This document shows, one piece after another, positions 3,038 through 31,808 of a stretch of 64,000 nucleotides of DNA. The stretch covers positions 1 to 64,000 of the forward strand of contig NGBS01001183.1 in NCBI GenBank assembly GCA_002245135.1, read 5' to 3'. Below the pieces are notes generated by a model. That model was not told where the DNA came from. It worked only from the letters and a program-made list of their open reading frames with translations, and searched no databases. Every line of letters begins with the position of its first letter. Within the stretch, counting starts at the first letter, position 1. A program made the position numbers and the translations under genes. Source of the stretch: Proteromonas lacertae. Taxonomy: Eukaryota.

Positions 3038-6000
3038 TTAGACTTTATTTGTTGTTGAAAGTTTGTTTGTTGAACTTCTTGAAGATGTTGATCTAGCAAC
3101 TTTATCAGCTGATTCTATATAGAACAACTCTGGGTTGGATAATGAACATAATGTCAAATCACTACACACGAGAATATCAGGTTCTAGAGGATATTTACCA
3201 TTAGATGCGTTATTTCTCAAATTTTGTCTTTGACTATTCAAAATAAATATAAAAACAATTATAATTATACATTTTCAAGTTTGCAGATGATGTTCCACTT
3301 CCTGAACCACCAGTTGGTCCACTTAATGAAGATCCAGTGGTTGTAGTAATTTCATGAACCCATAAATAAGTCACTTTCGATCCAAATTGAATAATGATAA
3401 TGAAAAATGTTCCTAATTCAATACCAAGTCCTCTAAACACCAATAAAACAGAAGGATCATCAGCCATTAAGTAATTCAAAGGAACTTCAATAATTCCCAT
3501 AATACATAACAATGCAATTGTCATAGCTAATGACATTGATTCATTGAAATCAGAAGCAGCATTTCTTACACTCCAAGCCAATTTAGCACCATAACAGAAC
3601 AATAAGAACAACAAAACAACTTGAACAATTCTATTAAAAGATAAATATAAATATAAATATAAATAATATATAAAATATACACAAAATAATCATTCTGAGT
3701 GCATTCTACTAAATAAACATCTTCCAAATAATTAGAATATGTGACACTCAATCTTAAAGTATGTACACTTCCATCTACAACCCACCATATTGTTAAATAA
3801 ATTAATTCACAGAACATCATCAACGCAATCATCTGCAGTAACTGTTTATTAGCAATTTTAACTCTTGCTAATTTCTTATTATTGAATAGTTTATGAATTC
3901 TCCATGCTTTTGAGAATATTATACTGAATAGTAATAAAACACTTAACGCTAATCCCCACACTCTTACAACACAAACCCAAGAACTACTTGGTTGGAATAT
4001 AAAGAATAAACCTTCTGTAGCAATTAACAAAATAGCGAATAACGAATAGAATAAGAAAACTGGACTTGCACTTAATATGACTTTAGTGTTACGATATAAA
4101 CCAACTAATGCTGATACAACTACAACAAATAGATAATTAATTACAGCAAACACAATAATAACAATTCTAATAACTTCATTGTAAGAATAATTAGAAACAT
4201 CTTTATCGAAAGTACACTCTTTAGCTTCATCAATATCATACAATATTGTATCAGGAATTACTTTCACACCTTGTCTTGGAGTGACTAATTCAATATCACC
4301 ATTTTGTATCTTAAACACTGACACACTCTTTGATAAATGATTGTTATGTTTGAATTGAACAGTACCACTTGGTGCATCATATCTTATGTTGAAATAACTC
4401 AATCTTACATAAGCTCTACTTGGGAATGATGCTGATGTTTGTTCTACAGAATATTCTACTGATTGCTTCCACAGATTAATTGCACTGTATGCTGCTTCAA
4501 TACTTTCAGACATTTGTTGATACTTTGAAAATCTTTGAGTAATAGCAAATTTAAATGATTGACTTGTTGTATCAGACAACACTGTTGAATAAGATGATAC
4601 TACGAAACTACCAGATAGAGCTTCTAATACATCATCTGTATATTCAAATGGTTCATAATGGAATAAAATTGGGTTGAATTGAGAAAAATCTACACCTAAA
4701 TCAATCAATGATTTGAATAAAATTTGATTCTCATTTGATTCAAATATGTTCATTACAGCAACTCTTCCTATTCTGGAGATGATATCTGTAACATTCTCTA
4801 ACAGTTTTGCTATATCAGCTGTTGAATAAGGTGAGAAGAATGAAGATAATTCTACTGTATATCCATACTTTACTGTTTGTTCGCTTATTGCTTCAGCTTC
4901 AATTTTTGCACTATTAAATATAAATAAACAATATATACTATTCATCATTTAATCCTATAATAACTACACTAGACAATCCTATATCTTTTAAATAATTCAA
5001 AATGATAGGTAATTTTTGTGATATTGTTGTTCCAACAATAGTTGCACATCTATAACACTTATTACCGTTATCTCTACCAGTGTCTATGAATAACATATCA
5101 TTATCATTTCTATTAGCATATCTACTAACTTCATCTCTACAATAAGGAGTCATACACCCAATAATTATCTCATAATTGTTACTTTGCACTATTTCTCTTG
5201 TCTTACCAAATATCAGATCTTTAGCTGGGAAGAAATGAACACCTATTAATTTCCTATTCAATAAACCACCATTTTCATTTATCTCAGATACTGCTACATC
5301 TTCAATAAATGACATATATATTTCTGTTCTTATTCCTACATCTTTTTGGTGTATAAATGCAATATAAGCAGGATCACTGTAATACATCATATCCTTTCTT
5401 TGTGTATCACAGAACCACCCTGTATAATTACTGTATTGATTATACACTGTTGGCTTTATTAAATCCTCTGGACCATATGTTACTAATAATGATAAATCTG
5501 ATTGAATTACAGCTGCAAACATTCTTCTAGAAACTATATTGTTACTATTTACTTCTATTGTGCCAGCTGGAACTGAATTAACTAATGTATAAACATTTTT
5601 GAATAATGAAACATCATATTGATCAGTTGAACTAAGTTTACTTACCACATTACCCCATATCTTCACAGCATCATAAGCAGCTTCTAATTCTGAATTAATA
5701 AATAGTTGTGGTCCTATCTTCGAATGTAATACATCATTGAATTCAGATGCTAAACTAATAACACTAACATCTGATGTTTTATCGTCGCTTAAAGATTCAA
5801 AATATGCATCTAAAAGGACATGACCTACCATATCATTTGGATGTTCTACTTTGTTCAATATATTTTCATCTACTAAAACACTTATTACAGTATAAGTTGG
5901 TGCTTTTAATCCTTCATTCGACATTTCATTAAACAAATCAACACTATCTTCACCTAAGAAATTTAAAATATAGCCACCACTTCTTAATACTGTCTTTATT

Positions 6001-9000
6001 GTACGAACTGTTGTACTTGCATCAGTATAATCAATATTACCAATTATACTCATTGATACATTAGAGAAACGAGCATAGGTCCATTCATATACATCACTTG
6101 AATATTCATCAGTACTTTTATGTATAAATACAACATTAGTTGTGTATTCAATTGTATATCTTAAAGCAACTTCAGCTATTTGTGATGTATGTTTACCAAA
6201 CGCATATGTGTGATTATTACATTTTATGTTGAAGTTTGTACCAGTGAAGAACCATATCAACTCTTGTGATTCTACTATTGGCGATAATGCATTATATGTA
6301 TCATGATTATAACCACCAAATATGTAATGAATATTCTTATTATCTGATAAAGCTTTGTTTAAAGCTTCTTTATAACCTTCTATAGATGATTTAGCATCAT
6401 GGAAATAATAAACAACTTTTGTACCACTGAAATAATCATCATCGTTTATTTCTGTCAAACCTAATAACACAGATTGCAAAATAGGAATTTCATCTTCTTT
6501 CCAATCACCAGTAACTGAGAACATTAAAGCAATTGGATATGTAGTTGGTGTATAAGAGCTTCCAATTGTTGATTCACTAAAATCGCATAATTTCATATTT
6601 GTATCTGAATAATAATATGCTATTGGAACATCATTTCTTGCTTGTTCATATACCAAACTCTCTTTACCATCTTCATCTACTTTAAATATCACTACATTTC
6701 TTGTTAAAAATTGATTATGAGCAAATGTTATCACTCCTTCTGGAGATTCAAATGATGCTTTTAATACACTTTCTCTTATAGCTGAAAAGGTTAATTCTGC
6801 ACTTTCATTTAATGCAACAAATGCTAAACGTAAAGCTGAATATGATCTTTCAATATAATCTGAGATTGGTTCTGACATACCAAGTCTTTGTTGAATACCA
6901 GATCTGAAATTTTCATTAACTTCAGAATCAACTAAATAATTATAACCAGTAACACCTTCAAATGATGTATATCCTTTATCTTTTAACTCAAAATAGAATT
7001 CTAATGATAAAACACTTAAATAAGGTTCTGTTAATCTCAATGAATCTAATGTTCTTTTAAGAATATCAAAGTTTTCGACAGAATCCATAAATATGATAAT
7101 ATTCCTATCTTTATTATTTGAAACAGATGTGAAGGTCTGTAAAAATTGAGTTAACAAATTCTGATCTAATTTATCATATGTAAATGGATCATATAATGTA
7201 TAATGATATCTATCAAAGAAAGTCTTTACAAATGAAGTAACATAATACCCTGTTGAACCAATTAATAAGTAATTATCATAATATCTATTAATCATAACAT
7301 TCAAAATATTCTCGTAAAAAGTAGGATGGAATGAACCAATCAGAATATTAGTTTCACAGAAATTAATATCAATCTGAGCAACCATTAATACTATAACATC
7401 ATTATCATTAGCTGTAGTTACTATTTCATTAAGACATTCAAAAGAAACAGAAATGACAATAAACAGAGGTTTATTTGCTTCAATATATTCTTTTATGTAA
7501 CTAGCACATTGAGATTGAACTGATTGAGTATCATAAATATCACCTTTCAATACATATCCTTGAATACCTCCTAATGTATTTACTTCATCAATTACTAACT
7601 GATATGAATCAACAATACCACTGCTTGTCTCTGAGGAACTACCTGTTATTGTTGCTACTAACAACACTCTTAACACATTCACATCATATTTTTCTCCTTT
7701 ATTTTCTAAATCATCATAACTACATCTTTTACCACTATATTCTGGAATATACCAACTCCATGCATCTGGGCTTGCATGATCAAACTTTGAATAAACAGTA
7801 TTAAATGAACCTGTTGATTTTTCATATTTTGCAACAAAGAATGGTAATGTAACATGATGACTTGTTTCTAAAGTAATTGTACCTGCACCTGCATCTATTT
7901 TTTCGCCATAGAGGTTGTATCTGAAACTATTCCAATCTGAACTTATATTCTTTTTTAATCCTTCTGCTATTAAACTAATACCAACATAACATGATAAAAA
8001 CAGAGCTGAAGGTTTTTCAGCTGAGGCATAATGATAAGCATATTTCTTCATTTCAGTATTAACTTCAGAATCAATATCAGGGAAATAATGTGATGGAATA
8101 TAAATTCCATCTAATTCATCATCTGGTGCTTCTGCTAATTCTTCAGTTTCTAAACCCATTATAAAGATACCCCATTTTGTTTTATCTATTTTCATGGTTT
8201 GACATAATTCTAAGAATTGTAATGCTTCATCACCATTCAAATACACCATTATAACTCCTCCATTTGCATTATTTTCATCATTAAACAAATAAGTTTTCAG
8301 TTTCTGTGTACTTAATGTAAATGTATCATTAATAAATATATCTGAAGCAGATTGGTGAACTAATAAGCCACTGGATGCATCAGTAAATATACTAAAGAAC
8401 AGCTTACTTTCACTATTACTATCACCAACAAAATAAACAAATTGGTTGATATCTAAAGTCAATATAAACTGTAACAATCTTGAAACATATTGATTTGGAA
8501 CTGGACCTGTATAAATTGTATTGAAATTACACTCTTGACCTAAACTCTGCTTTGGATATACAAATACTTTATTATGTTCTTTAGCAGCATGCTGTGCTAC
8601 TTCTTTACATGACAAAGTGGTACAACCAATAATACCAACAACTTTTTCTCTAGATAAAGGTTCATGAACTAATTGTTCAATCTTTGAATCATCTGATTCA
8701 TAATCTATTAAAACTGGTTGAAATGTATAACCTTCTACAAATCCATCATCAGCTATTTTTCTTAAAGCGGTCATTGCACCATCTATTGCTTGTACATCAA
8801 CACCACTTCTTGCACCAGTAGAACTAAATAACACAATAATTTCTATCTTTGGTATTTCTGTTCCATTTAATGCGTTTTCATTACTCATATTACATTCTAT
8901 ATATATTTTATCAGCATAATAATCTTCATATGGTTTTGGAGAAATGGTAATTCCAGAATCATAGATATTTGTAGTAGCAAAACCTTTTGTAGTTGCATTA

Positions 9001-12000
9001 TCTTCAATAACTTTTCTTATTCTTAAATAATCTTTAGCCAAGTTATTTGGTAAAAATTGGATTAATCCTTGAGGTGTATCATATGTTGTTTTCATTAAAT
9101 CCTCTCTTAACACAGAAGCTTTAGCATTTCTATTAGAATTTAGGTAAGCTTGATAGAATATATAAATTGAACTAGCAGGTCTTGAAAACTTTTGAACTAG
9201 TGTGGGTTGATATGAAATATATCTTGTATAAACACTACCAAAATCATCAGCAACAGTAGAATGTATTTGTTGAGAATCAACAGAGATGATATAAAAATGA
9301 CCAATCAAATTCTTGTCAACCATTAAATAATCAATATCGATGGATAATGATGTATAAGTCGGAGGTTTCATATCATTTGAAACAAGTGCATCTAACAACA
9401 ATTTAGCAGATTTTCCCATCAAAAACGATATAAACATAGCACCATTTGGAGCTATTCTTTTTACTAATGTTGCTAGTGGTGATAAATCAGTATTATCATT
9501 AGGACAACCATACATTAATACAATATTAAAAGCATAGAAATCTAACTCTTCTTTCAACTTGTTAACCATTTGTTCAGATGTTGTGGTCATACTATAAACA
9601 AGTACAAATGATGTACCAGTGTAGTGTTCAACTAACCAAGGAGTTATCATAAAATATGAACTATAAGGATTTGATAAATAAATTGTATTTGACAAACACT
9701 CATCTCCTTCATATTCATAAAAATAGAACAATAATTTATCATCCAATTTCATTTGTTTGTTTAATGTTCTTCTCAATTCAGTATTCCATCCACCAAAGAA
9801 TGCTTGTATTTTGTATTTCTCTTTAAATTCATTAATTATTTCCATCGCTTTTGTTACATTATCTGGTACTGAAATATAAAATGGTGATAAATAATCAGCT
9901 GTTGTTATTTCACTTTCGTCAATCTGTAATCTAATGTATTCTACCATAGTAATTGTTGACCCAATTAAAAGCAAACTGTCTCTATAATAAGCTGGATCTT
10001 CTGGTATAATAATTCCTATTGGTAATGTTAAAGGTTCTATCTTAGAGCCCATTCCTTCATGTTGAACATCACATATATAATACGGATATTGATTCAATGT
10101 TTCTCTCCATGTTTCACCATTCCATCTTTCATTAATTCTTTCAATTGCTCTAATAACACCATCTTCTTCAACTTGACCAAACCAATTACCTTGTAAAACA
10201 AAGTTATCACTTCCTACTTCAACTGTTCCTAATAATGTTTCAACTGAAGTTGTATAGAATAATGAACGGATTTCATCAATTGTCATTGTATTTGTTTTCT
10301 TAAGTACTGTTGCTAATAAAGCTACAGTTGATTGATATATTGCATCATAATAATTTGGATCTTCTGATAATGGAGCAAATGACTTATACTTTGTAAAGAA
10401 ATCAACATTTAATGGTTGAGTTTCTGAATAGAATAGAGTTGAAAATACATAAGCTCCTTCTGTATATGTTGGATCATCATATTTTGCTCTTTCTGAATCA
10501 TAAATATACACTGGAAATTTCTCAAATATTTTTGTGATATTATTATCATTTGCATCTTTTAATATTGTATAAAGTGTCTTTAATAGTATTTCTGAAGTAG
10601 TCTTTTTACCTACAACTAAAATACTTATTCCTTCATCATACTTCTTTGTAAGATATGTCAAATGCTCTAACATTTGAGAATCTACATTTCCATTTAAATC
10701 TAAAACTTTATCACTCACAGGTTTATAATTAATTGTAGTTGTTACATCAACTATTAATGCTCTTGAATGACTATAATCTGTATCAGTAATTAAAGCAAAT
10801 TTATCTTGAATTCTAAGCAAGAAATAAATCAAAGGAGCCAATATTCTTTGAGCTGGAGATGCACTAGCATAAATAATATTTGAAGAACAATCTCCACCAT
10901 CATTAATACCTGTATAAATCATTAACATATTCAAAAACTCTAAACCATCTGTTAAATATGTTTTTGTTTGAGTATTACAACCACCAATTATTATATTAAA
11001 TCCTCTTTTCTGTAATTTCACTAACAAACCAGAAGCTTCGCCAGCATCTTTTGGACAATCATAGATTTCATGCTCTATTCTTTTAAAATGAGTTAGACCT
11101 TGAATATTATTATTCTCAATTGTAAGAATACCTGTAAAATAACGATAAATTGTATTGGATGTATTAAAATTTGTAATATCTAAAATAAAAGCAACACCAA
11201 CAATATCAGTTTCAATCATTGTCCTATCATCTATGAAATTAGTTTCATAGTATTTATCATCATGATCAAAAGTATTCCATACTCTTGGATAAACAGGAAA
11301 TATAAAGTCAGAATATACTTTGACATTTAACTCTTCATTCAATATTTCCATAATATATAATGTAGTTGAAACATAATTACTAGAATACAGTCTATAAGTA
11401 CCAGATGCAGTATCTAGATCATTATTATATAATCTGTTTCTAAATTCTGTCGATGTTTTTATATCATCACTCATATAAGTTTGGAATGTTCTTAAACCAT
11501 TATAAGCAGCTGCAGTAACAGACGAAATCAATTCGGATGGTTCTCCTTTATATGTACTGATTTGGTCCATTAATATTGCATTTAATGTAGAATTAATTTG
11601 TGTAGAATACAGTGCAACTCCATAACAACCAACTAAAGAATCATAAGGTATATTATTCTTTTTACAATAATTCTTTATATCATCTTTTGGATAATCAAGC
11701 ATGATCATAGGGAAATTGATATTATCAAAATGAGTTACTAAACTTGTAAACATTGTATGAAACACTGGCGCTGTATATTTACCTAAAACAGTAAAAGTAG
11801 CACATCGATCAACAGGCATTAAAGTATCGTTAAAATCTTGTATTACTTGTTTCAATCCTTCTTCTGAATCTAAGAATGTGGAATTATAAGAAAACATATA
11901 AGCTTCATATGAAAAATCGTTTAATCTTTTAGTAATGAAATGCTTAGTTGCATTAGCCAAAGCAGAATCATCAAAAATACCATAAACACAACTGTGAGAT

Positions 12001-13311
12001 TGGTAGAATTGTAAAACTGGGTATTCAGCAAATTGATTAACTATTGCATTGAATTGTAATATATTCTTATAAGCAACTTCACCTATACTTTGAGATGGAC
12101 TAATTAATAATTTATCTTTCTCTTCTAATATTTCTTCAACAGCATCTCTTTCGCTTGGGAGTGTGGTTCCTACAAAAGTCAATATTGAAGATGACTTATT
12201 CTGCATCATTCTTTCAATTGAAGCTGTAAAATTACCATCAAATTCAGAGTCAACTAATATTTCTAATTCTCTACCATTCACTCCACCATTTAAGTTGATC
12301 AAATCTATTACCAACTGAATATTATCAGATAATTGAATTCCTTCATAAGTTCTAATATCATACAAAACACCAACATAATAAACATTTGTTACATGAACTC
12401 CATTTAAAGGATCTTCTTGGAATGAGCATTGTAATGTCTTGTTATGGAAGATATTCGTAGTATGAACAAAAGTATTTGTCTTTTGCAAAATAGCAGTTGA
12501 ATTCTCATCATACTATTCACATAATAACAATTATATATATATATATACCATAACTAACCTTAGAACATTACAGACATAACCATCATATTCAACAGTATAA
12601 ATACCGCCTGGACTAATTTTTTGATCCAAATAATTTTCATACAAATGAGTTCTATATAAATCAATTGAAGTTGATGAAGCTAATTGTACAGCCTAAATAG
12701 TTAAATATAATTATATATATATACAGACATCCAATATCTTAAAGTATCATAAGTAGTAACAAATTCATTTGACACAACAACATCCACACCTAATAAATCT
12801 TTCAAATAAACTTGAACATCATACATTGATGTATGATTAATATAACTAAAATAATGTCCAAATGAATAATAACCAGTGAAATTAGTAGCTGTATCAGTAT
12901 TTATCTTAGTTGCTTGAAGTTCATCTAATGTAAATGAAACGACTATCCAATTATTCTCATTTGTAATTCCTTTTTGGTATAGAATTGAAAACAAATCTTT
13001 GTTATAAATAGATTCAGCTGTTATAAAAATAGAACCATTATTTTTCAATAATAATATTTGATCAGCAATACGAATAGCTTCTTCTGTTTTATTCTTTTCT
13101 TGGATAATATTGAATTTTGCAAGTGTATTAATACCATAAGTTGCTAATTCTTGTTTTAAAAGTTCTCCTATTGATTCTCCTCGACTATAAACAATATATA
13201 TATTTAATAATAATACCCTGTATCACCAATAATAAACACATTTTCAAGAGCTTCTTCAGATGCAAATCTTACAGCTTCATATACAATATTTGGACCTAAT
13301 GGACCAGTCTA

Positions 13312-13343
<32 letters not shown>

Positions 13344-14946
13344 CAAAAACAATATTATTTTCACACATATTACCTTCAGCATAACCCATAAAGAATATTT
13401 GAGTATCAAGATTCTTTGTCCATTCAACAATCTTATTCCTTGTAGTTGTATTTGATATTAAAAATACAGCTGATACACTATAAGTCTTTATTGTAGTAGT
13501 TAATGTTGATTTTAATTCATCCATACTATCAATTTGATTTAATGACATATATAATGGTGTAATTGATTTATCTAATACTCCTCCATCTTTATTAATTGAT
13601 CTGATAGCTTGAATCATTGATAATCTAACTGTTCTATCAACATAAATTGTATCATCACTAAGTTCATTAATGAATAAAATAGTAACCATTTCATTTTCCT
13701 ACAATACCTGTTTCATAATTGGCTAATACATCGCATTTGTTAGGATTTGCTTCACCAAATACATTAAAAGGATCATTTAATTCATCCATATCTACTCTTC
13801 TTAAAGTTCCATCTGCCCAATCAGAATCGAAATATGCAATATAATAAACTGTAGAAGTATAATGATTACTTCTTAACATCATTTGACCACCTGTAAAATC
13901 GATTGGTTCATCATATATTGAAGATAATAATGTATTTGCTTGATTGGTTGGTATTCTTTCATTTGCTTTAAGAAGTAATTTCACTATTCCAATTCTATGA
14001 AGATTAAAATTAATATATATATACACTTTATTAACCACCTGTTTATCTTTATTTGTTAAACTAGCTATCAGCAGAAATCAAATTGGTATATTCAGTCAAA
14101 TCTTCATTTGATTTATCAGAAAATACTTTGATATATGCTGAAACTTCCCATAAAGCATTGTAGTTAGTCTTCATATAACGCACTAATTCATCAGTAAATA
14201 AATATAAGAATCCTAAACTAATTTTACTATCAACATCAACTTTATCTTTAATATAATCGCCTAATATTTTAAGATGTTCTTCATTATCTATTGTGGATAT
14301 AATATAACTTCCTTCTCTTCCCTTTATATTTCAAAGCTTCAGCTGCAACTCTCTCAATTTCTGTCTTATTGACATCTGTAATTGTATATGCTGCAATATT
14401 CATTCCAACTGATTTACTAAGCAACGTAAACTGTTCTAAAACCACTGCATTTGCTGTATTATCCTTACCACCGATGAATACAAAATTTGGGTAGAAATTG
14501 TATACCATAATAGAAACAACTATAAATTAGTTAAAATAATGATGATGTATACCTGTTTCCATTGAATATCCTATCATATCTCCTGGAATTATGTTGACTG
14601 AGCAAATTCTTGGAGGAATTGGGTTAAAACACCAAACTACTATATCTGAATGTTTCACAGAGAAATCGTAATTATATATTACATCATCACAATAGCTGAA
14701 AACCAAAGAAACAGTAGCTTCTTTAAAAGTATCAAACAATCCAGACAAAGTTTCGTTACTATCTCCATGCGATGTAGCACTTTGTATAACTTCTATTTTC
14801 TTAACTGGATCACCTCCATTTATATAATTGGTGTAAGCTTCTAACGCATAATAAAAATCTTTGCCTGTATCTTTAGGTTTCAAATATCCTATTTTAAGAG
14901 AACTAACACATGTTAGAAATAATAAAAAATAAATATAAACCATCAT
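3038..14946 (-). CDS. Giant class C-type GPCR A: signal peptide, 9 tandem UrtA/AmiC-like periplasmic-binding (Venus flytrap) domains, 7TM and a Ser/Thr-rich tail, about 3,860 aa
   Basis: Frame-restoring GT-AG introns at 14520-14552, 13995-14024, 13309-13344, 13185-13216, 12693-12724, 12513-12548, 4911-4938, 3631-3680 and 3234-3270, plus three apparent +1 indels (about 14324, 14066, 13695). PBP motifs: FFGGWNTELRR, GCTTLSCKE, YPKQSLGQECNFNTIYTGPVPNQY. 7tm_3 motifs: SASPVFL, CVVRVW, KAWRIHKLF, VRNAASDFNES. Confidence 0.85.
13317..13343. repeat. (AT)n microsatellite inside a 36-nt intron
   Basis: Uninterrupted AT dinucleotide run within intron 13309-13344. Similar runs occur in introns near 12535, 38520 and 52655. 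Confidence 0.9.
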
Positions 14947-15087: not shown

Positions 15088-16166
15088 CTATATCCTCATT
15101 TTATAAATATCACCGTTAGAAGATAGACAATTCAATGTTTTATTATATATAGAGCATCCTACAATAGGATATGCAGTTCTATAACATAATTTATGATTCT
15201 CTTCAAGAGTTTTACTCTTCTTTTTCTCTCTCTCTTTTTCATTATTTTTTATGTAAATTTCATTACAATCTCCAACTAATGCAACTCTATCATTTTCTGT
15301 AGCACTTTCTTCGCTATTATTTAAAGGATAAATTCCTATAATATTCTCTTTAAATGGTATATTAATCATTTCATTTGTTTTTTGAAATGTTTTATCAACT
15401 TGATACAACATATTCTTACAACTAACATATAATTTATTATTATTATATGCTAATGCTGTACATAAATCAGCTGATGGTTGAAATCTATTTATAAAGCCAT
15501 TTCTATTTGATTCTCTTAAATCATAAAACACGATATTATTTTGACAAATTGTACATAATATATTGTTATCTATGAATTCGAGCGATAAAGGATTACCAAT
15601 TAAAGGAATAGATCGAACTAATTCGAAATTCTTATAAACACACATTGTATTACTATAATAATGAGTTGTAGCAAACTAAAATAGAGTTTATTAAATATAT
15701 ACTATTGTATTATCAGTTTTATTAACTTTTATTGAGCTCCACCCTGGTTGCATTACATTTTCATGTTTTATAGGACGAGACTCAGTTTTCATCTTCTTTT
15801 CAGGTTGTGTCATAGAGTTTGAAAGATGAAATGTCTTTATTACTCCTTTCTTATCAGTTGAACATAAATATTCTATATCAATGTAAAAGAATTCATTATA
15901 AATACTATTACTAGCAACATCAATTGACATTATACTACAATCATTTCTAAAAAAATGAGAGTAATTCAACATTTTGTTTTCTTCATTCAACTATAGCTAT
16001 TATCAAATATTATTTATACACTATATTGAAGTATATACTCATTACAACAAGCAAAGCCTGTAAATTCCTCACTTACTAATTTTTCACAATTAAATGCACT
16101 GCATGTAGGATAATGAAATAATTCATCCTCATTACTTTTGTATTTATAGAGTAAAACCTCATTCAT
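15088..16166 (-). CDS. Putative WD40/beta-propeller protein, multi-exon
   Basis: ORF pieces 16014-16247, 15691-15990 and 15088-15645 are separated by short CT..AC segments (minus-strand introns). Beta-strand repeats such as IVFYDLR, LCSTDKKGVIKTF and LNCLSSNGDIYKM. Confidence 0.5.
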
Positions 16167-18794: not shown

Positions 18795-19925
18795 TTACAT
18801 TGACATAACAACAGTTTCAGGCCAATCAAATGCTTGTACGTGATTTAAAACAGCTTCACAATCAGTAAATGGTACTTCTTTTATATATGACTTTAATTTA
18901 CCATCAGTTATCATTTTAGAAATATCATTAACCATCTTTTGAACTTCTGCCTTGGTGGATCTATCAAACCATTCTTTAATAGAAAATCCAGAAATTGAAA
19001 CATTTCTAGTGATTAATGAAGGTGATGGTATGACCAATGGATTAGAATATAAAGAATGATATGAAACAAAATCTCCACTCTCTCTATTTCATGTAAAAAA
19101 TAATATAGATTTTATATATACTCTAAACAATCAACTAATTTTGTAGAAATTGTTCCACCTATCGCATCTACTACTAATTTTGCTTTTTTACCATTCAACG
19201 CTTTCGTTATTTCTTCTATACTTGTACCAATTGGATTAGCATTCAATTCAGTTAATTTCTGTGAGTAATATTTTCCATGTTTACCTGCTTTAAATACATT
19301 AATCAAATTTAAATTCATTTCTCTAGCTTGTTGAACAATTGAAAAACCAACAGGAGTTTGTGGTCCACTTTGTATCACTGTATCTCCAGGTTTTAAATTA
19401 CCAAAATCATGTAGTATTCTATATGCATATGCATGACTTGACATGATAGTAGCACATTCCATTGGAATTGCATTATCAGGTAATTTACATATATCATTGT
19501 CATACACTGTAGCATATGTACACCATGTGCCTGTTGATTTTGTAAAAATCACTTTGTCTCCCTCTTTAAAATCTTTTACCTTATCACCCACACTTGACAC
19601 TAGTCCTACTCCTTCAATACCAGCAACAGCAGGTAATGAAAAAAATGTTGAATGTCCTTCAATCTATAAGTATTAAGAAATATACATATACAGCAGCTAA
19701 ATCTGTGAATTTCATAGGTGCTCCTACTACTTTACACAATATTTCATGGCCTTTAATTGGTGGTATATCGATATCAAGCTTTCTATTATCGAAAAAAGTA
19801 AATTGTATTATATACACTAAAACATCTTCTGGCCTACCAAATTCATCAAATAAATAAGCACTGGAAGATGCTATATTAGCAAAGTTTCTTCTACAATGTC
19901 TTAAAAAGTGAGAAATTTGAATCAT
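18795..19925 (-). CDS. Mitochondrial trans-2-enoyl-CoA/ACP reductase-like protein (MECR/Etr1, MDR family)
   Basis: Presequence-like MIQISHFLRHCRRNFA. Motifs FGRPEDVL, LPAVAGIEGVGLV, GTWCTYA, AYRILHDFGNLKPGDTVIQ and ISGFSIKEW. Intron 19664-19691 and others. Confidence 0.8.
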
Positions 19926-20029: not shown

Positions 20030-23000
20030 TTAATTTTTTGTAATAACCAACCCTTTTGAATTTCTATGGTTTAAAAAAGTAGATCTTTGTGTCACTGTGG
20101 TTGTTGAATGGAAAGCTACAGATCGAGTAACATGAGATGAAGATATATGACTATCTGTTTCAATTAACGATTCTTCATTTGCAAATATATACACTATCTT
20201 TGGTATTAACTGTAACAATGTTAAAAACATTATACATATATTGTAACCAACACCTCGAATTAACAACAAGGAATTACGATGATCATCAACTATAAAATCC
20301 AGAAGGAAAAACACCAAAGGTAATGCAAATAAGATTAAACTGGATAACATCAAAAATAAAGAATCATTAAACTCATTAGCGACATTCTTCGTTCTTATAG
20401 ACATTATCAAAGTATAAGCTACAAATATTCCAACATATGATGCAATAACAATAACAAATGGATAAGAAAATGAGCATTCTTCTGTGAAACTTGAAACTAA
20501 AAATGTACTTTCACTCTCAAGGAAATATAATGTATATTCTGATTTAGTGGTTGTTAAATATATTAAAATTATTATTAAAACTGGAATGTACTGTATTATA
20601 AAGAATTTTATCCATTCAAGAAATGTAATTGAGATTTTATGAACTCTCTTCTTCTTTGTCTTACTATAAGCAATTGCTTTTGAACAATATGTTTCTGATA
20701 TAAGTAGCATTGATGTACAACTAAATAATACTCTCAAACCACATATTATTGAGTTTTTATCAATCTGCATAACCAATAACAAAACACTCACATCAGCTAA
20801 TGTGAATGAGAAATGTAAAAGATAACTGAATAATGGAGATGCACATTTGACTATTCTTTTCTTTCTATATCGGAAAGAAAGATATATTGAAGCTATTATT
20901 ATCAACATATTAGCACCAAATAAAGCATAACCCATTATTCTTAATTCTTCAGATTTTGGAATTATACGAGTTTCTGCTTTTGTTATGTATTTATCTGGAA
21001 CTCCATCTAAAAATGCATTTGGATAATATGATATTGTCTGTCCTATCAATGGAGAATCTTGACCAAAATTTACATCATCGATTATATCGATTATATATAT
21101 TGGTCTTATTAAATAGTTAGAATCAGTCATTTGAATTACTCCACTTGGTGAATCATATTTCACATCTTTCATTGACAATCGAATGTATTCATTTGAAGGC
21201 CATTCTTCAGAAGCTCTTTCTTGTGCTTTTTGTATTGCCAATTCAAACAAAAAAACACTTGAATAACTAATTTCATAATCAGCAGATACATAAAAATTCT
21301 TTGAATAACGATTGTATGCTTCTTTCAAAAAAGCTGTATTAGAAATAGTTGTAATAGCTTGATGATAATTTATTGGAATAAAACTTCCTTCAAAATCATT
21401 TAAATCATACTTTCTAAAGTCATAATGATTATAATTCAGGAATAAAAATTCTATCCTCTTTTTGTTTAATTCATTCTTCTTATAAACGGGTAAACATGAT
21501 TTTAGATGTTCTTCAGTTAATGCTGTTATTAGTACTATATCACTCACCGATTCTGACATTCTTGATACTGCTTTCATTGTTACTTCACAACTTCCGCCTT
21601 TCTTTATTATTTTATATCCAAATGAATTAAGAGACAAATAATCAAACATCTTTCTTGTTGTATCAAAATACATCTCTTCATTCTCTTCATCCATTAGAAT
21701 ATATAAATTATTAAACTTGAATTTAAAAAATGAAAATGATGCTTCTAATTTTTGAGATATTATTGGAGCTGAAAACAAAAGTATATGGAGAATAGAATTC
21801 TCCATGACTTCTTACAAAACTAAAGAATATTTTCTTATATTTATCTGCTATCTTACTTACTATTCCTTGACATTCAAAATCTAAACATCCAAAAAATGAT
21901 ACTACATCTTCATGTTCAGCATATGGAAGTGTTGCATTTTCAATTTCAATTGCTATCAACTATCACTGTATTTAAAACGATAAAATAACCTAAAATACCA
22001 CCTCCCTCATTAATTTGATCAACTGCAAATTCTACTCCTAACCAAGTATTATATTTCTCTTCTTTTATTCTATAATCATTCTCTATTACTAATACAAATC
22101 TTTTTCTCTTTTCATATTGATATATTCCATCATGTGTTGTTTAAAATCACAAATTTTACCTTCATTATCTTTTATCCATTGACTAAAACTGTCAGCTTCA
22201 ATTATATCCAATGGACTATTACCTATAACATAGTTACCATTAACTATCATTATCCTATACACCTTTTCTAGAAATTACATTATTCTTTTTTAAATTGATT
22301 ATTCCTGATCCATCAACAAAATTTTTACCTGACATTCCTTTTCTTACTGGTATAGCTTCAAATGAAAATGCTTCTTTTACACCTTTTGACCATAGTTTGA
22401 TTGCTGTATAAGTTGATTCAAATACATTACTTACAATGACTGAATCTTTATATCTATAAATCGCTTTTTCATAGAAATTTCTTTGATTAGAATACTCTCT
22501 AGACTGTTGTTTACCAATTATTGAAAACCAAGACCCCCAGATTGTATGATAATTAAAATATTGCTCATTTCCTTTCAAAATAATATCACTAATAAAATAA
22601 TGTATAAATAAGAATTTTGGGTATGTAAATCTACTATACATCAACTTTGCTACTTCTAAGGAATATTTGGGATGTAAAATATCTATAACTAATGCTCCAT
22701 CTGTATATTTTTCATACAGATAATCAAATAGTGTTTCATTTTTGTCATACAAATAACCATCGTAATCTATGCCCAATTCACTGAATAAACTGCATGCTAC
22801 AGTATAAACTACATTACTAAATGAATCATTACTATACAATATGATATAATAATTAAAATTTATTTCTGTAAATACAGCTTTACCTGCTTTAATTAAATGA
22901 TTTGCATTAATATTTGTGATTATTCCAAATGCATCACAGAATTCACCTGTACTTATTCCTGAAAAGAAAAACAGTTTCTTTGACTTTGTAAAATAAGTCC

Positions 23001-26000
23001 TTAATGACAAATACTCTTCATGCCAATTAGCACCAAATACAGCTGTCATTCCTGTTTGATCCATTACTTCTTTTCCTAACATACCAATTTTTGATTCATC
23101 AGACATTGTATTAACTACATCTAATTCTATTCTATTACTAATAACTCCATCATTATCATTAATCTCATTCACAGCTAGTAATGCAGCACTAACTATTTCT
23201 CTACCAATTGTTTCATCTTTTCCTGTTAATGGAGCTAATACAGTAATTTTATGAGATGGTAATTTGTATTTTGCACCAATACTTGTAATGTTTAAGTTAC
23301 AAATATACACACCTGTATTTAAAAACTTATTATATGGATTTGGTTTGCCCAAATCTTCTTTACTCAGTATTTTCATTATTCCTTCATTATTTCCATCATA
23401 ATATGATACAAACACTGGTCTATAAATCATATTATTTGTATTAACAAGCATCTTTCCAGCAGGAGAATCATATGGTTCTTCATAGAATTGATTTCTGGTT
23501 TGATTAATAAATAAATGCTTATATATATTCTGAACATTTGCCCAATATTTCAATGAAGAATATATTCCTTCATGAAAATGATTTATTGGCATATCATCTG
23601 GTAAAGGGTATTTCAACAACTCTTTCAAATGACTATTCTCTGCAGTATCAATGGAATTAAAATAATGACCAACTCCATAAAACGGATATACATGATTAAT
23701 TCGCTACTTCTTCTGATGTTGAAAAGGAATAGAGTATATAATCAGAAGGACTAACATTATGATTTACAAATAGCTTGATTCAACATTATATGTTGTTGAC
23801 TTGTTCCTAAGAATAATATCACTCCTCCTTTGGGTAATCGAGATATTATAGAAGTTGCAACTGCTTCTATATTTGAACCAGATTCATCAGCGACTAATGT
23901 AGCACTTACAGTTCCACCTAAATAAGTAATGTAATGTTCAGCATATGAAGCAAATTTTGTTGAGAATGTCTCTGATATACTAATTATAGCAAAATTATGC
24001 TTCTTCTCATTTAAACATCTTTCAATTACTATTTCTGATGTACGAGGATCTATTCCAACATGAGCAACACTTCCAGTACAACTTTCTCCACCAAATAATC
24101 CAACATGCCAAACTAATATTTTCTTCTCCACAATTTTAGAATAAATTAAATCAATACATTTTGAATTTGTTACAACAAACATAACAGTATATGTAGCACT
24201 ATCAAGTAAATCTATTGTTTTGGTTGCACATATATATTCATCAGATTCATCATCAACTACTGAATAATCTAAAAGAAGACCTTTTATTCCTGGATTTTCT
24301 TTATCATTGTTTATTTCAGTAACTGTGGCAATAAATGTCTCTTCTACACCTCTATAACTTTGTGCATATTCTCCAGAATTTGATGTTATTAACAGTGCTT
24401 TCACTGTCTCAATAACAGATACTTCTTCTCCCATTGGTTTGGAATGATCACATTGCTTTCCATAATTCTCATCTAATTCCCAATTATATGGTTGTGGAAT
24501 AGATTTTATACTACTTCTAACAACAAAAGCACCAGTTAAATTATATTCATAAATGTAAATATCACGAGTTAGGTAATTACTCTTATCAAATATTGTTGTT
24601 TTTTCATCATTTAAATATAACGATGTTATATAACTTTCTATATCCTCTAATTCTAAACCAGCATTTTCTATTGCAGTTTTCATTGCAATAATGCCAAGTG
24701 CTGTTGAAAAACTATCATCAACTAGATTAACAAATCCTATATATTTTTGTAACATTGGAGTATATTTCTTTATAATTGAACTGTCAGTGACTGGAGAATC
24801 TACACCTGAAACATAATAAAGAGGATATGGAATTACATTAACATGTTTTTTAACAAGAGTTGGAGTAACTGTCATAGAAAAGACTTGCATAAGATTTGGA
24901 TTAATTGATAGGATGGCCAGTTTAAGATAATTCAATAACTTGATTAAATCCTTAACACCAAGAAAAGTGAAAATAAATGAACCATATTTATTAGTTGTTG
25001 AATCGATAAGATTTCTAACAAACTGAATTGTAATTGCATTTTGCAAGGTTATTTCTATATTGGCTTGAATATGAAAATCAGATTTTAATTGGTTTTCCAA
25101 TATTTCTCGAGCTAAATCCCATTTCTCACCTTTATTATACAGAATAATAACATCTTTTTTATTCTCTTGACTTGTTGCATAATTCTGTATTAAACTAATA
25201 ACTTGATTTGGTATTGGACCTGTATAAAATGTTGCTATTTCACATGTATTACCTTCCATTCTATTTGGAACAATTAATACAGCCCCAAATTCTAATTGAA
25301 TTGGATTAATTAATTTTCGACAATAAACTGTTGTACATCCAACAAGAATACCTGTTGGGTATTTACTTAACAAATTATGGATTTTATTTTCAAAATATGG
25401 ATCTCCATCATAATAATCTTGAACAACTAAATTCAAATGAGCACCTAACACACCTCCATTATTATTAATTTCATTTATTATAGCAACACATACTAATAGT
25501 ATTTCATAATAATGAGGTTCATCTTTCGACGATATAACTAACATCACTCCAAATTGGAATTGTTCTAATTTTTCACCTACTTCATTATCATCATTATTAT
25601 ATTTCCAATTACATGTATAATACATATCACCCATATATTTAGTTGTGTAAGGATTTGGGGCATAACTAAAATCATTTTCATAAAATGTTTGAAAGTTATA
25701 ACTCATTTGACCATAATAATTTGTTGCTGTTACTGTCATTATTGAATGAGGCATTGATAAATGATGATTACTTTCCATTACTAATTTTCCCAACGCAGTT
25801 GCAACTACCATATCATTTATTCCAACTAATAAATTCTCCACTTCTATTGATTTACTATGTTCAATTGTAGCTTCCCATAACTGAATAGCAATGGTTGAAT
25901 AATACATATCAGTTGTGAAATATGGGATAAATGGATAAACATCATGTAAAATTTTTTCCATTCTTGTACCTTCTGCACCTGTATGTGCTGATAAGAAATA

Positions 26001-29000
26001 ATGACCAACTAAATATTGGTAATATCCAGTGTATTTCAGTTGGTTTACATCAAGTCCTACTGCAAATATTGTGTATTTTGGAGATATAATTCCATTATCA
26101 TGAGCTCCTTTTATAAAATCATATTTCGCTGCTGCTTCTAATATTGACACTACTATTCCACCATTTGGCATATATGTCATTATCAATTTAGCTAAATACT
26201 GTGTATTTGTTACTGTATAACCTACTAATATTGTTTTTAAAACATGTATATTTAAATGAACTAAATCAGAAATTAAAATATCTTTTGCTGTTCTACCATA
26301 GTAACTATTCGTATAAGCAATAATAATTTGTTGAGATTTTTCTAACACTTCTCTTTGAATATAATATTGAAGAATATACTATTATACAATAATAAAAAAT
26401 ATATATAAAATAATATACTCTGTTGGTGAAAGGAATTCCTACATAAATTATATTTTCTTTACATTCACATCCTTCATAGTTATGTGGATAGATCAATATC
26501 ATTCCCTTACTTTTTAGAAAATCATAGCTTTCAATTCTCATTTCAGAATTACTCATACCTGAGATAATCTTTACACCAGAATCATATAAAGAGTCTATAA
26601 TTTCTTTTAGACCATCTGTTTTAGAATCAGCATTCTTAAATATTGGTAATATAAGCATTCCTCTAACTCCACCTTGATTCTCATTGATTAATCTTATCAT
26701 TAATGTATAAGAATGTAATAATGGTAAATCTTGATATGAATAATCACCTGTAAATGATAATATTATACCAATTGGTAATGTTAACCTTGGATATTTTTCA
26801 CTTCCAGAATCTCTCCAATTACAAGTATAAACTTCTTGTTGGAAATACTTTGAATACCATACTCTAGCTTCTTGAACAACTACACTCACAAATGAAATTG
26901 GCTCAATTCCCATTTGACCCATTTTTAATAAAATTATTGAATGAGAAACAACATTGTCTATGGTTAATTTGACTCTGCCAATTTCAGTTTCTATTTCATT
27001 TTTATAAAGATATTGAAGTATATCTTCATTACTAAACTCTTTTGTTGATTTAAGACTTCTTGAAATCAATGACAATGCTAATAAATAGTTAAATTCAGTA
27101 CCAGTATATACATAATTGCTACTTAATATTTGAGTTATCTTGTTTAAAAATGGTAAACTTGAGGGATAATATGGAATGGTATTACTGACAAAATAATGAC
27201 CATATGTATATACACCTCCAACATTCAAGAAATCGGCACTAAAACAAAAAATGGGAGTAACATCACCATGAAGGTATGATGTTGAGGATTTATACAAATT
27301 GAATAAATTGTACAGGTTCATACTTCTCAATGTAGTTATTATATAATTTTTGGTTGGACCACTCATTAATTTATTGATAAAAGTCTGAATACCTATTAGT
27401 GGAGTATCATATTTGGAAATATCTACAATCACTTCATAATCAGATAGAGATTCTGTATTCTTGATTGAATCAATAACAATTGAATTATAGTTCATCATAT
27501 CAGAATCACTTCCATCATAAACAAAAGCAGTATTTATATTATAATTATATACTAAGTAATTGATTGCAGTAGATACATATTGATCAGGTGAAGGGGACAT
27601 AAAAACTACATTCTTTTTACATATATTTCCAGTATTAAAACCAGTATAAAATAGTAAAGCGTCATTAAACACTGATCTAGCAGCAAACATTCGAAGAAAT
27701 GACATTTGAAATCCTCCAATATACAGTTTTATATTATATTTTTCCTTATCATTAATCAAATCTCCTGTTGTTACATTTGTCAGAGGACTTTCATATTGAT
27801 GAAATATCTAAATCATTAAAAAAAAGAAATATTCATACAATTACTCGTTTATTCAATAAACTATTACCTCTTATATCATTCACATACCATTTCAATAATA
27901 GCATTATGTTCTTTGTATTATAATCATTTGCAGCTTCGGTTATTAACCCAATATGTAATGGAATATTCTCGATCTCTTCATTAATTCTTGAAACACTACA
28001 CACTTTGGATTCATTTGTATAAATCTAATCAATAAAATAAAACTTAATAAAAATACATTTAAATCATAACCATTAGAATAGATTGGAGCTGGGATTGAAT
28101 ATGAAAATAATGTCTTATAATCCAAACACATATTACCTCCAGCATCAAGTGAAGTACAAACAACCTTACCAATATAAAATCCTTTTGTTAGATAATAACT
28201 GTTCGATAATTCTGCATTGTCAATTTCAGAAGTATGTAAACTGTGATGATACGTTTGTTGAATATTTTGTAATACTGAAGATCCAGAATAAGACAACTTT
28301 CTTGACATTGCATCAGTTATTAATAATATAGATTCATAAAGTGTCACAAAGTCTTCTTCTAATAATGATTTTATTATTCCACCTCTCTCTTTGATTTTTG
28401 ATGAGATATCTTGTACTCTATCATTATTAATCACAGGTAAGAATGAGCCAATAATATAAACACTTTGTGCAAAAACAGGAGATATTCTATTAGGAGTAAT
28501 AATGTTTCGAAGTAAAAAGTTATATGCAAATGTTGGATAAGAATAACATGGAATATTAAAATGTTTAAAATCATGAACTATTAGCAGAATTGATTGGTAT
28601 TGATTTGGATTAATATTAGAATTGCAAATCATCATAAATTTATTCGCAAATTGATCTTTACTATATGTAACTGAATCAAAACCATTTTTGTTATTCTCTA
28701 TATAACTAACTGCTGCATCTTTTATTCCTACTGAAATTCTATTGAATTGAAATATAACTATTATATTATATACGGATCAGCATCATAAAATATATGAACT
28801 CTTAAGGAATTTTGGGCAATAAAATCTAATGCTAAATATAAACTATTATCTGGAACTCTAGTGTTTATTAGTGTATTTGGTAAACATATTCCTCCTTCAA
28901 ATGGTTGATATACTAATAAAATTTTATCATTCTTTACCATTATATCATTCATATCTATTATATCTTTCTTTCTATACATATATATATATTGAATATTATT

Positions 29001-31808
29001 GTTATACATACGTTAATAATCCAGTAAAAGCAATTACTTCAGGTTTTTCTGCATATTCATTAATCACATCTAATATTTCACTCACATTGGATTTATAATA
29101 AGGAAATATAGGTTGGATTATACCATAACTGAAACTACTGTAAGAGTTTATCAAGTCACATACTTCAAGTATTACTTCAATTTGAGAAGAACAATAGTCT
29201 ACTCCGAATAACTCATCAGTTGGGAATAAACCAATCAAATAATGCTTTGATTTAGCATAATTATATAATGATTTAGTATCTAAATATGAATTACAATCAC
29301 ATAAACCTCCTCTATCATCAAAAATATATGATAAAAATTGACCTGATGATGGAAATTCTGTATCAAATTCAAATTTTCCTACATATTTTGTTAATAGTAT
29401 TCTGGTGTAAGAATAACCAGTCACAGAAAAGGACATTGGACCATTGATTGTTGAAATTGAGGAAGTATAAAGTAATCTAAATATATACATTAATAAGGTA
29501 TAATATACTCTCTTGTGTATTTATATTCATAAGATAATGCATTCATAATTACTTTCTTGTAATACATTACAGTATAATAACCAATCATAAAGTCAGTTGT
29601 ATAGAATGGAATGCTATGTCTACCTATTATCTTCATTTTATCATCAAACTCTCTTATATCATTATTATAATCTAATTTTGGATCAAATAGCAAAAATGTA
29701 ATATAATCTCCATCAACTGAGGGATTATAATCATAATACTCATCAGGATCAGGTATAACTAGTGGATAGAGTACTGGATTATAATGTAATGTTTTATAAC
29801 AGTATAGAAATAGATCTCTATATTCTGGTTCTAATAATAGAATTGTATATCCATTTGCTTCATCCTGAATTTTTGATTCATCTTTATTAGCTATTCAATA
29901 AATAATATTACAATAATATTAATACGATCAAATAGATGTTGTCTCATAAAATTTACACCAACATATCCTTCAGCTTTTGTTAATTCTTTTAGTGAATATC
30001 GATAAATTTTATCTTGCGGATAACCATTACTGATTAACTCTTTTTTCATCCAATTTGATATTAAATCACTATATCTAAGAGTTGAACTTATAATAACTAG
30101 TGGTTTGTCTTGATTCTTTCTCAAATACCATGTATATAGCATTTTGAATTTAGATTCAAATGATAATCCAGAGTATATAATTTTTGGAGCTACAAGCACT
30201 GCCTGTAGAATACGTAGTTGCAAATACTTTAAATTCAGTTATGTTTTGATTATCTAATTTTTCTACCAACTCATTTCTTTCTAGTACTCTCATTGAGGTG
30301 AAAATATAATTCCATTTATTTTCTTTGTAATAAGAAGATAACTATCAATATAGAGAGAATATATTCATATATTCATACAATTTTAATAATCTCATCCATT
30401 GGTTTTGAACCATCAATAATAATTGGATATATCATCACTTTCTTAATATCATTCTATTATATAAACAATAATAATTATTAATAATAATTAATACGCTTAA
30501 GTACATATCTCTAAGCGCCATCACTTCTGCATCTAGTACATATCTTTCATTGTTGCGATAACTATAATGACTGTTACTCAAATAGTTGATCAACACAGCT
30601 CCATAACTCATTCTTTGTAATTGAGAAGTAGAAAATGAACAACTAACGTCTGGTCTTCCAAATACATCAACATAAGTCATAAAACGATCAAATACTACTT
30701 TATATATAATCGTATAGTTGTTATTAACAGAAGAATATTTACCAATAACATTTGGAGATGTTAATACATTTTGTGAAGTGAAATATAGACTTTTATCATT
30801 TGAATACTTAACATACTTCTCATATATTGTTTCTACAAAGATTGAAGATTTCATATTTCTAACATCATTATACGCTTGTTCAAATGCTTTATATAACATA
30901 CATCTATAGAAGAATTAAATATTACAACTATACAATTTCATTATTTTTATATCATTATTATGATCAGTAACTAGATTCAGATTATAACTATAATCAGTTG
31001 ATTGTAACTCAGATGGTAGTAATATTAACACATTTTCCCACTCTGATGAACTTGGCATATTATTATGATATGCAAAATCATCTAAGTCAACTATCACTAT
31101 TTCAAATTGAGTCATTGAAGAAAGTGGAGTAATTAATTTGGTCGAAATTGTATTAAAATCTGATATTATAAACAATTCTGTCAATTCTGTAGAGGAGGAG
31201 TTTAATTGAGTTAATTTGGCATTTAACTCATTTTCAGGTGTAGAACTATCTATTTCTATGTAATTGAATGCCAATCCTAATATATCTGCTAATTTTATCA
31301 TGAATGTCTCGATTTCATCAGAATAATATGATCTTTGGAAAATCATTGAAATTGGTTTAACTTCACTGTAATAGATCATTACTAAATAATATTTATATAC
31401 AAATAAAATATACATTTTTCTATCGTTTTGGTTATTGAGCCAAAATGAACAACGTTAGAGTGACATCTTCCTACAACATAAGGTGTAGTTGACCACAGTG
31501 TCATTGAATAGTTTTTAAATGCTGAATTAATGTAATCCATATCTTTAAATATAACGGAAGTAAAAACAGTGAGTAATATCCTGAGTTTTGAAAGCATATA
31601 ATATATCATTAATTTTACTTCCATCAGATGATGTACTCATTTTTATAAAATCAGGTAAATGATCAACTCCAGTGTCATTTAAAATGATCTTAAGATCATC
31701 GATAAGCTGCAAATCTACAGATGAAGAAGGTCCATCTTCATAAATAAAACCTAATTTTACTTCATTTGCACTAACTACAACTAAAAACAAAACAAAAAAA
31801 ACGATCAT
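20030..31808 (-). CDS. Giant class C-type GPCR B, paralogue of A: signal peptide, 9 tandem UrtA/AmiC-like domains and 7TM, about 3,800 aa. It has 8 apparent single-base indels.
   Basis: Introns at 31382-31413, 30904-30933, 30454-30494, 30342-30378, 29891-29925, 29477-29508, 28972-29011, 28739-28773, 28025-28056, 27808-27838 and 26379-26418. Motifs YPHNYEGCECKENIIYVG, GCTTVYCRK and TFYTGPIPNQ. 7TM with CASPLF, CGLRV and TKNVANEFNDS. Confidence 0.8.

What the first reader, a model, noticed from the sequence alone, without database searches (positions are those of the whole stretch)
3038..31808. Two giant class C-type GPCRs, each with nine tandem Venus-flytrap domains
Seen: splicing the tiny introns merges about 20 ORF fragments into two co-oriented genes (14946->3038 and 31808->20030). 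Each has a signal peptide, nine ~390-aa repeats and a 7TM with class C signatures (S/CASPxF, FNE/DS). In A the repeats start at LKIGY, VTILF, YYVGVL, IVGVAF, TLPIGII, IEIIVLF, LRVLLV, YPIALMF and AYIAFI. Known: canonical class C GPCRs (mGluR, GABA-B, CaSR, T1R) have one Venus-flytrap domain per chain. Inference: these are multi-flytrap 'antenna' receptors with an ectodomain of about 3,500 aa, either sensing several small solutes or acting as a long spacer/adhesin. I do not know of this architecture being described, but I cannot search. Automated annotation would probably split it into many small genes.
Basis: partly seen in the sequence, partly recalled or inferred. Interest (0 to 1): 0.92.

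Follow-up and report, generated by a model that had tools for sequence, protein, structure and literature searches.

The report
Nine-flytrap giant class C receptors
A single-celled eukaryote carries two neighbouring genes that are predicted to make 3,800-residue cell-surface receptors, each with nine copies of a bacterial urea-binding-type domain stacked above one G-protein-coupled-receptor membrane domain; the copies have lost the urea-binding residues and likely form a stiff stalk rather than nine urea sensors.

Summary
Genes A (14946→3038, 3863 aa) and B (31808→20030, 3794 aa) each give nine ~390-aa repeats plus a 7tm_3 domain. Splicing 20 tiny introns is not enough: 11 small frame breaks remain, probably assembly errors. 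An 80% identical orthologue reads through six of B's eight. Homologues join array and 7TM in one reading frame, so the link at intron 4911-4938 does not rest on the splice model alone. The repeats resemble bacterial urea-binding UrtA, not the mGluR/GABA-B flytrap. They keep the fold and a cysteine pair but not the urea pocket. Each of the six membrane-nearest positions forms its own lineage across paralogues, so the array order is old and fixed. A predicted three-domain model suggests fixed packing. A separate lineage (P0021) also has nine repeats, five with a complete urea site. The domain pairing was listed in 2014 and a four-repeat Capsaspora protein is public; I found no paper on long arrays. 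The scan earlier noted a five-flytrap octopus receptor on other DNA (unchecked). No RNA evidence, ligand or G-protein test exists. Verdict: new variant of a known kind.

The parts
3038..14946 (-). Gene A: 10 exons, 9 introns, 3 frame breaks; model 3863 aa = signal peptide + 9 UrtA-type repeats + 7TM + Ser/Thr-rich tail
   Evidence: Pfam
13724..14898 (-). A repeat 1 (m9, most distal); holds frame breaks near 14325 and 14066
   Evidence: 53 bits with independent profile
12417..13686 (-). A repeat 2 (m8); a frame break near 13699 lies in the linker before it
11232..12380 (-). A repeat 3 (m7); the only A repeat lacking both conserved cysteines
10062..11201 (-). A repeat 4 (m6)
6576..10025 (-). A repeats 5-7 (m5 8883-10025, m4 7713-8846, m3 6576-7673); folded together
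5400..6539 (-). A repeat 8 (m2)
4205..5369 (-). A repeat 9 (m1, next to the membrane), split by intron 4911-4938
4911..4938 (-). 28-nt intron joining the array to the 7TM exon; if retained, a stop codon follows at once
   Evidence: sequence; P0003 ends and P0020 begins at this place, P0001 and P0022 read through it
3375..4174 (-). A 7TM (7tm_3), with intron 3631-3680
20030..31808 (-). Gene B: 12 exons, 11 introns, 8 frame breaks; model 3794 aa, same layout as A
26812..31760 (-). B repeats 1-4 (m9 30630-31760 weak, m8 29290-30596, m7 27989-29196, m6 26812-27958); frame breaks near 31560 and 30176
   Evidence: 18, 67, 58, 123 bits
20978..26778 (-). B repeats 5-9 (m5 25602-26778, m4 24441-25559, m3 23290-24404, m2 22140-23253, m1 20978-22104); six frame breaks near 23771, 23698, 22266, 22139, 21954, 21772
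   Evidence: orthologue P0052 is one open frame over 26327-20033
20198..20947 (-). B 7TM (7tm_3), no intron

Best explanation
A and B encode class C GPCR-type proteins with nine UrtA-like flytrap domains that lack the urea-binding residues and likely pack into a stiff extracellular stalk, whose membrane-nearest domains would pass a shape change to the 7TM and, in A, likely to a G protein. Shown: layout, UrtA likeness, loss of the urea site, fixed order of positions m1-m6 across paralogues. Predicted: fold and inter-domain packing. Inferred: the 11 frame breaks are assembly errors; distal domains act as spacer or as surfaces for large ligands; any small ligand binds near the membrane (m1-m2); A couples to G protein while B, which lacks part of the TM3-TM6 lock, may be a partner subunit.
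For: 13 of 150 listed homologues carry 5 or more repeats plus 7TM in one chain. P0022 aligns to A residues 1264-3839 and P0052 to B residues 1699-3794 (79.5%, 2 gaps) as single frames. Best PDB matches are UrtA by sequence (E 1e-17) and fold (Z 46.7, rmsd 2.5 A over 384 residues). None of 117 family domains keeps more than 2 of 5 core urea residues (residues from PMC10392092). Pocket columns evolve at background rate: A vs P0003 16 of 44 against 49%, B vs P0052 26 of 37 against 78%. Two cysteines are the best conserved columns (99% and 93%) and A m7 lacks both, as expected of a disulfide. Domains group by position: m1 15 of 15, m2 15 of 16, m3 11 of 13, m4 11 of 12, m5 8 of 10, m6 6 of 7. The three-domain model has pLDDT 84, pTM 0.82. 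A keeps the TM3 Lys and Arg, TM6 Glu and both disulfide cysteines.
Against: No transcript, protein, ligand or signalling data. Frame breaks are denser in the receptors (11 in about 24 kb) than elsewhere (3 of 22 other gene models flagged), which fits decay as well as patchy errors; five breaks have no orthologue cover. Rigidity rests on one pTM from a 20-row alignment, without coordinates or error maps. Lack of pocket conservation cannot exclude fast ligand turnover, and m2 is partly conserved (P0001 vs P0022 8 of 9; A vs P0001 6 of 9; but A vs P0003 1 of 9). No G protein gene lies in the window and no whole genome was held.
Confidence: 0.5

Rival explanations
1. Multi-ligand antenna: each of the nine domains is a working flytrap tuned to a different small solute, and closures are relayed along the array to the 7TM.
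For: Positions are old and distinct (11-21% identity within A); both lobes and the fold are kept; P0021 keeps complete urea sites in 5 of 9 domains, so arrays with working pockets probably exist.
Against: Pocket columns are not more conserved than background in 10 of 10 protein pairs pooled over positions, whereas bacterial UrtA pocket residues are reported as strictly conserved (PMC10392092).
Confidence: 0.22
2. Adhesion or contact/mechanical receptor: the array is a surface adhesin or tether binding host or bacterial surfaces; the 7TM reports force or only anchors it.
For: Ectodomain of about 3,480 aa with many N-glycosylation sequons (31 in A); other class C hits use long repeat stalks (21 TIG domains in P0164); the B-type subclade has lost the TM3 Arg.
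Against: A-type members keep the full class C activation motifs; no autoproteolysis domain was hit in Pfam; copy order is fixed rather than variable.
Confidence: 0.15
3. The architecture is real in the lineage but these two copies are pseudogenes in this isolate.
For: 11 frame breaks cluster in the two genes; 19 of 22 other gene models show none (a lower bound on breaks).
Against: 0 in-frame stops in 7,657 codons, where 1.3-6.6 would be expected at an assumed 2-10 substitutions per indel (chance of none 0.27-0.001); identity to P0052 stays 73-79% per domain across the breaks; unrelated genes also show breaks.
Confidence: 0.1
4. The array and the 7TM are separate products (secreted array plus short receptor), or the fragments are separate genes.
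For: Unspliced, intron 4911-4938 gives an immediate stop, so a secreted form is possible as a minor product.
Against: The intron falls inside repeat m1; P0001 and P0022 lack the break; B and P0052 have no intron there; no new signal-peptide-like stretch inside the array.
Confidence: 0.03

Closest known systems
GABA-B receptor (class C GPCR)
   Same: 7tm_3 with a type I flytrap joined by a short stalk and no cysteine-rich domain; best fold match for a family member's m1+7TM model (E 4e-27) and best Atlas hit (0.94).
   Different: One ANF-type flytrap per chain versus nine UrtA-type; whole-chain rmsd about 25 A, so the predicted flytrap-to-7TM geometry differs or is uncertain; dimerisation untested.
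mGluR / CaSR / T1R
   Same: 7tm_3, TM3-ECL2 cysteines, FNE motif.
   Different: No NCD3G cysteine-rich domain; different flytrap subfamily; nine copies.
Bacterial UrtA (PDB 8hic, 7s6e, 7s6f, 8tg1) and AmiC
   Same: Fold, C-terminal extension and cysteine positions.
   Different: Urea residues lost; below the TIGR03407 cut-off; fused in tandem to a eukaryotic 7TM.
Non-animal Peripla_BP//7tm_3 receptors (de Mendoza 2014, fig. S3 text; Capsaspora CAOG_05347; chytrid KAJ3101170)
   Same: Same domain pairing; CAOG_05347 has 4 repeats and the chytrid protein 2.
   Different: Their 7TMs fall outside the A/B clade; fewer repeats; I saw no discussion of repeat arrays.
BvgS/EvgS sensor kinases
   Same: Tandem flytrap domains in one receptor chain (search listing; details recalled).
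   Different: Bacterial kinases with two flytraps of another structural class (recalled); no 7TM.

Membership tests
Class C GPCR (7tm_3) | 7tm_3 domain above Pfam cut-off | tested here: met
   96.3 bits for A's main exon and 68.5 for B, cut-off 33.5
Class C GPCR (7tm_3) | Seven membrane helices | tested here: met
   Seven hydropathy peaks after the array in each model; seven long helices in the P0024 model
Class C GPCR (7tm_3) | TM3 and ECL2 cysteines | tested here: met
   Both in A and B
Class C GPCR (7tm_3) | TM3 Lys/Arg and TM6 acidic residue; TM7 PK motif (as listed in PMC3727952) | tested here: inconclusive
   A has Lys, Arg, Glu but Ser for the TM7 Pro; B has Lys, Asp and PK but lacks the Arg
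Class C GPCR (7tm_3) | Flytrap domain directly before TM1 | tested here: met
   m1 ends about 10 residues before the 7TM in A and B
Class C GPCR (7tm_3) | Obligate dimer | not tested
   The complex predictor was not available
Class C GPCR (7tm_3) | G-protein coupling | not testable with these tools
   Needs an assay; no genome held to list G proteins
mGluR/CaSR/T1R | NCD3G cysteine-rich domain between flytrap and 7TM | tested here: not met
   No hit and no room for it
GABA-B | Single ANF_receptor-type flytrap | tested here: not met
   Nine repeats; Peripla_BP_5 449 bits versus ANF_receptor 42 bits on the long ORF
GABA-B | C-terminal coiled coil | not tested
   Tails are 99 and 55 aa and 30% Ser/Thr; no coiled-coil program was run
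UrtA urea-binding proteins | UrtA fold | tested here: met
   Z 46.7, rmsd 2.5 A, 384 residues
UrtA urea-binding proteins | Trp120, Ser122, Gln144, Tyr190, Asn246 | tested here: not met
   At most 2 of 5 in any of the 18 A/B domains; positions mapped by motif through P0021
UrtA urea-binding proteins | TIGR03407 cut-off 492.75 | tested here: not met
   349.8 bits summed over six stretches of A's long ORF

The most novel reading that the evidence does not exclude
These are multi-site GPCRs in which nine different pockets are mechanically coupled along a rigid array to one 7TM, with A and B working as a pair; the parallel nine-domain protein P0021 would be a true urea-sensing GPCR with five intact urea sites, built from a bacterial transporter subunit.
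Probability: 0.22. Interest if true: 0.88.

Novelty: new variant of a known kind. Interest (0 to 1): 0.68.

Why it matters
Class C activation models assume one flytrap per chain acting through a dimer. A family with nine ordered, position-specific flytrap domains shows the 7TM can carry a very different ectodomain and raises the question of how, or whether, distal domains signal. It also shows that the bacterial urea-binding protein was used to build eukaryotic receptors, and P0021 gives a direct test for a urea-sensing GPCR. A published domain table lists 116 class C 7TM proteins and 7 G-alpha in the gut flagellate Proteromonas and none in eight Blastocystis isolates; giant receptors like these could be part of the sensory kit lost with motility, if the host lineage is confirmed. 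Gene callers split these genes, which probably explains why they are overlooked.

Tried and rejected
No whole genome was held. No sequencing run was listed, so splicing, expression and the frame breaks are unchecked; this blank is no evidence. The metagenome scan gave one weak, useless locus from 102 pattern matches. My first guess, Blastocystis with poly(A)-made stops, was dropped: the gene models end in genomic stops, the TGTTTGTT motif follows only 1 of 18 gene ends examined, no Blastocystis entry is named among the best 120 Hsp90 hits, and the published table gives Blastocystis no class C receptor. The Hsp90 tree did not place the host among named groups. An automatic parse hid several of B's breaks as false introns; rejected after the P0052 alignment. 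Tiny or atypical introns at the 11 breaks were rejected for lack of typical candidates. Colinearity of P0021's nine repeats with A's was tested and not found. The TM7 column was mis-mapped and ignored; TM7 was read. The complex predictor was not available, so dimerisation is open. Literature searches for multi-flytrap class C receptors returned no description; several were noisy, subscription papers are missing, and key supplements were not seen.
Full report
Observation. The window is 27.7% GC with short AT-rich introns. On the minus strand, A runs 14946→3038 and B 31808→20030 with three ordinary genes between them. One ORF of A (4941-12512) holds 7 Peripla_BP_5 stretches, and both genes end in 7tm_3. 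Curated models give A 3863 aa (9 introns, 3 frame breaks) and B 3794 aa (11 introns, 8 frame breaks), with no internal stop once the breaks are bridged by X. All 20 introns begin GTAT and are 28-50 nt. A profile made from 83 homologous domains, leaving out A, B and four close orthologues, finds nine repeats in each; B's first is weak (17.6 bits) but above the best of 200 shuffles (5.7). Those homologues were themselves collected with a profile seeded on A's repeats.

Is it one protein? No RNA data were available. Homologues give independent support. The word search found P0001 and P0002 (2 of 5864 candidates) and P0003 (1 of 4002). The exhaustive search with A's last 400 residues found 1554 proteins and listed 150; 24 of the 150 have two or more repeats plus 7TM in one chain and 13 have five or more. 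P0022 aligns with A residues 1264-3839 and P0001 with 1714-3725, straight through the intron 4911-4938 position. P0003 stops and P0020 (88% identical) starts at that position, which fits a shared intron. Most homologues lack a signal peptide and look cut at introns, so their repeat counts are minima. No close homologue covers A's first three or B's first four repeats, so the joins there rest on the splice model and the profile.

Frame breaks. None of the 11 has a typical intron of the right phase around it. P0052, B's orthologue, is one 2094-aa frame over 26327-20033 at 79.5% identity with 2 gaps, covering six of B's eight breaks. There are no nonsense codons; 6% of substitutions would create one, so 1.3-6.6 are expected if decay gave 2-10 substitutions per indel, a ratio I assumed. 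Other genes also show breaks (1-2100 and near 49940). Against pure error: only 3 of 22 other gene models were flagged, though that parser found just 3 of B's 8. I put assembly error at about 85-90%.

What the repeats are. The best PDB sequence matches are urea-binding proteins and AmiC; NCBIfam gives UrtA, below cut-off. AlphaFold2 on A's m5-m4-m3 (1164 aa, 20-row alignment) gave pLDDT 84.2 and pTM 0.82; the best folds are UrtA (TM 0.87; Z 46.7, rmsd 2.5 A), above GABA-B flytraps (Z about 31). A pTM that high for three domains suggests fixed relative packing; this is an inference, as I had no coordinates. Using the residues in PMC10392092 (passages), mapped by motif through P0021 (Ser274 mapping least sure), none of 117 family domain rows, partial ones included, keeps more than 2 of 5 core urea residues, while 6 of 18 domains from P0021, P0033, P0034 and P0084 keep all five. 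Pooled pocket columns were not more conserved than the rest in any of 10 pairs; the intact-site control gave 90% against 47%, but it was picked for intact sites. Exceptions are m2 and m1 in some A-type pairs (8 of 9 and 7 of 9 between P0001 and P0022), not shared by P0003. Two cysteines are the best kept columns, and A m7 lacks both.

History. In a FastTree of 95 of 135 domains (short ones and six proteins left out), domains group by distance from the membrane: m1 15 of 15 (support 0.93), m2 15 of 16 (0.89), m3 11 of 13 (0.95), m4 11 of 12 (0.80, with B m7 inside), m5 8 of 10 (0.90), m6 6 of 7 (0.87); m7-m9 are unresolved. A's repeats are 11-21% identical to each other but 44-55% to the same position in P0003. 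So at least six positions predate the split of A, B and many paralogues. On a 7TM tree of 40 of 123 rows, 18 family members form one side of a branch with 99/98 support; P0021, Capsaspora CAOG_05347 (P0033), P0034 and the chytrid protein P0084 lie outside (names). P0021 is an unnamed 3745-aa single frame with 9 UrtA stretches and 7tm_3; 7 of its 8 full repeats group together with UrtA-like domains of other proteins and are not colinear with A's, which suggests a separate expansion. It is cut at the N-terminus, so nine may be a minimum.

The 7TM. A keeps both disulfide cysteines, TM3 Lys and Arg and TM6 Glu; B and its subclade lack the Arg and often have Asp. PMC3727952 (passages) names these residues as crucial for GABA-B activation. 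A model of family member P0024 (pLDDT 85.7, pTM 0.75) matches GABA-B best, with whole-chain rmsd near 25 A. A division of labour between neighbouring A and B is a lead only.

Host. Hsp90's best single-domain named matches are stramenopiles at 75-77% (oomycetes, Placidida, Cafeteria), with unnamed relatives at 99% and 91%; the tree left it on a long branch. PMC12129017 (passages; table S5 rows) lists Proteromonas lacertae at 27.0% GC with 116 class C 7TM, 182 periplasmic-binding-like and 7 G-alpha proteins, and eight Blastocystis isolates with no class C 7TM or G-alpha. A Proteromonas-like gut stramenopile fits but was not tested.

What is known. PMC3971589 (passages; supplements 2-3; file 1 not searchable) lists a Peripla_BP//7tm_3 architecture without copy numbers in the text I could see. 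PMC12716839 (passages; section 9) describes varied non-animal ectodomains and no arrays; its supplementary file 12 was not held and could list the Capsaspora protein. PMC12842992 (passages) and PMC5608401 (term search) had nothing on it. Nine searches found no multi-flytrap class C receptor; one search listed only an EvgS paper (listing seen). The Proteromonas genome paper was not found or read. An earlier scan note reports a five-flytrap octopus receptor (unchecked); look-ups by sequence and place were empty.

Verdict. A real and striking architecture, a new variant of class C receptors. The layout is about 90% secure; the stalk mechanism about 50%.

Noticed in passing
P0021 (unnamed, 3745 aa): Single frame with nine UrtA domains and a 7tm_3; four domains keep 9 of 9 and one 8 of 9 pocket residues. 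A strong candidate urea-sensing GPCR from another lineage.
   Followed up: partly
window 4911-4938: Intron retention would end translation at once and give a secreted 8.5-domain ectodomain; the intron position appears shared with P0003 and P0020.
   Followed up: partly
window 20198-20947 and homologues P0052, P0030, P0032, P0035, P0029, P0037, P0039, P0041: A whole subclade lacks the TM3 Arg, often with Asp for the TM6 Glu, while A-type members keep both.
   Followed up: partly
window 1-2100, minus strand: Small ORFs with cysteine clusters and several frame changes; no convincing Pfam hit on those scanned; errors or a decayed element.
   Followed up: no
window 49161-51014, minus strand: TBCC-domain gene with a frame change near 49940 in a T-rich run.
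   Followed up: no
window 60335-62173 plus; 44908-46053 minus; 63220-63975 plus: Acyl_transf_3+SGNH O-acyltransferase, a nucleotide-sugar dehydratase and a UDPGP-like gene: possible surface-glycan genes; origin not tested.
   Followed up: no
window 46149-47231, minus strand: Intronless Ras/Rab-family GTPase with an unexplained N-terminal extension of about 125 aa.
   Followed up: no
window 15088-19925: Between A and B: a beta-propeller-like gene, a histidine acid phosphatase with a C-terminal hydrophobic stretch, an ADH_N oxidoreductase, and a possible small plus-strand gene at 18169-18751.
   Followed up: no
P0164, P0063: Class C 7TMs with 21 and 13 TIG domains: another long-stalk design in the same receptor class.
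   Followed up: no
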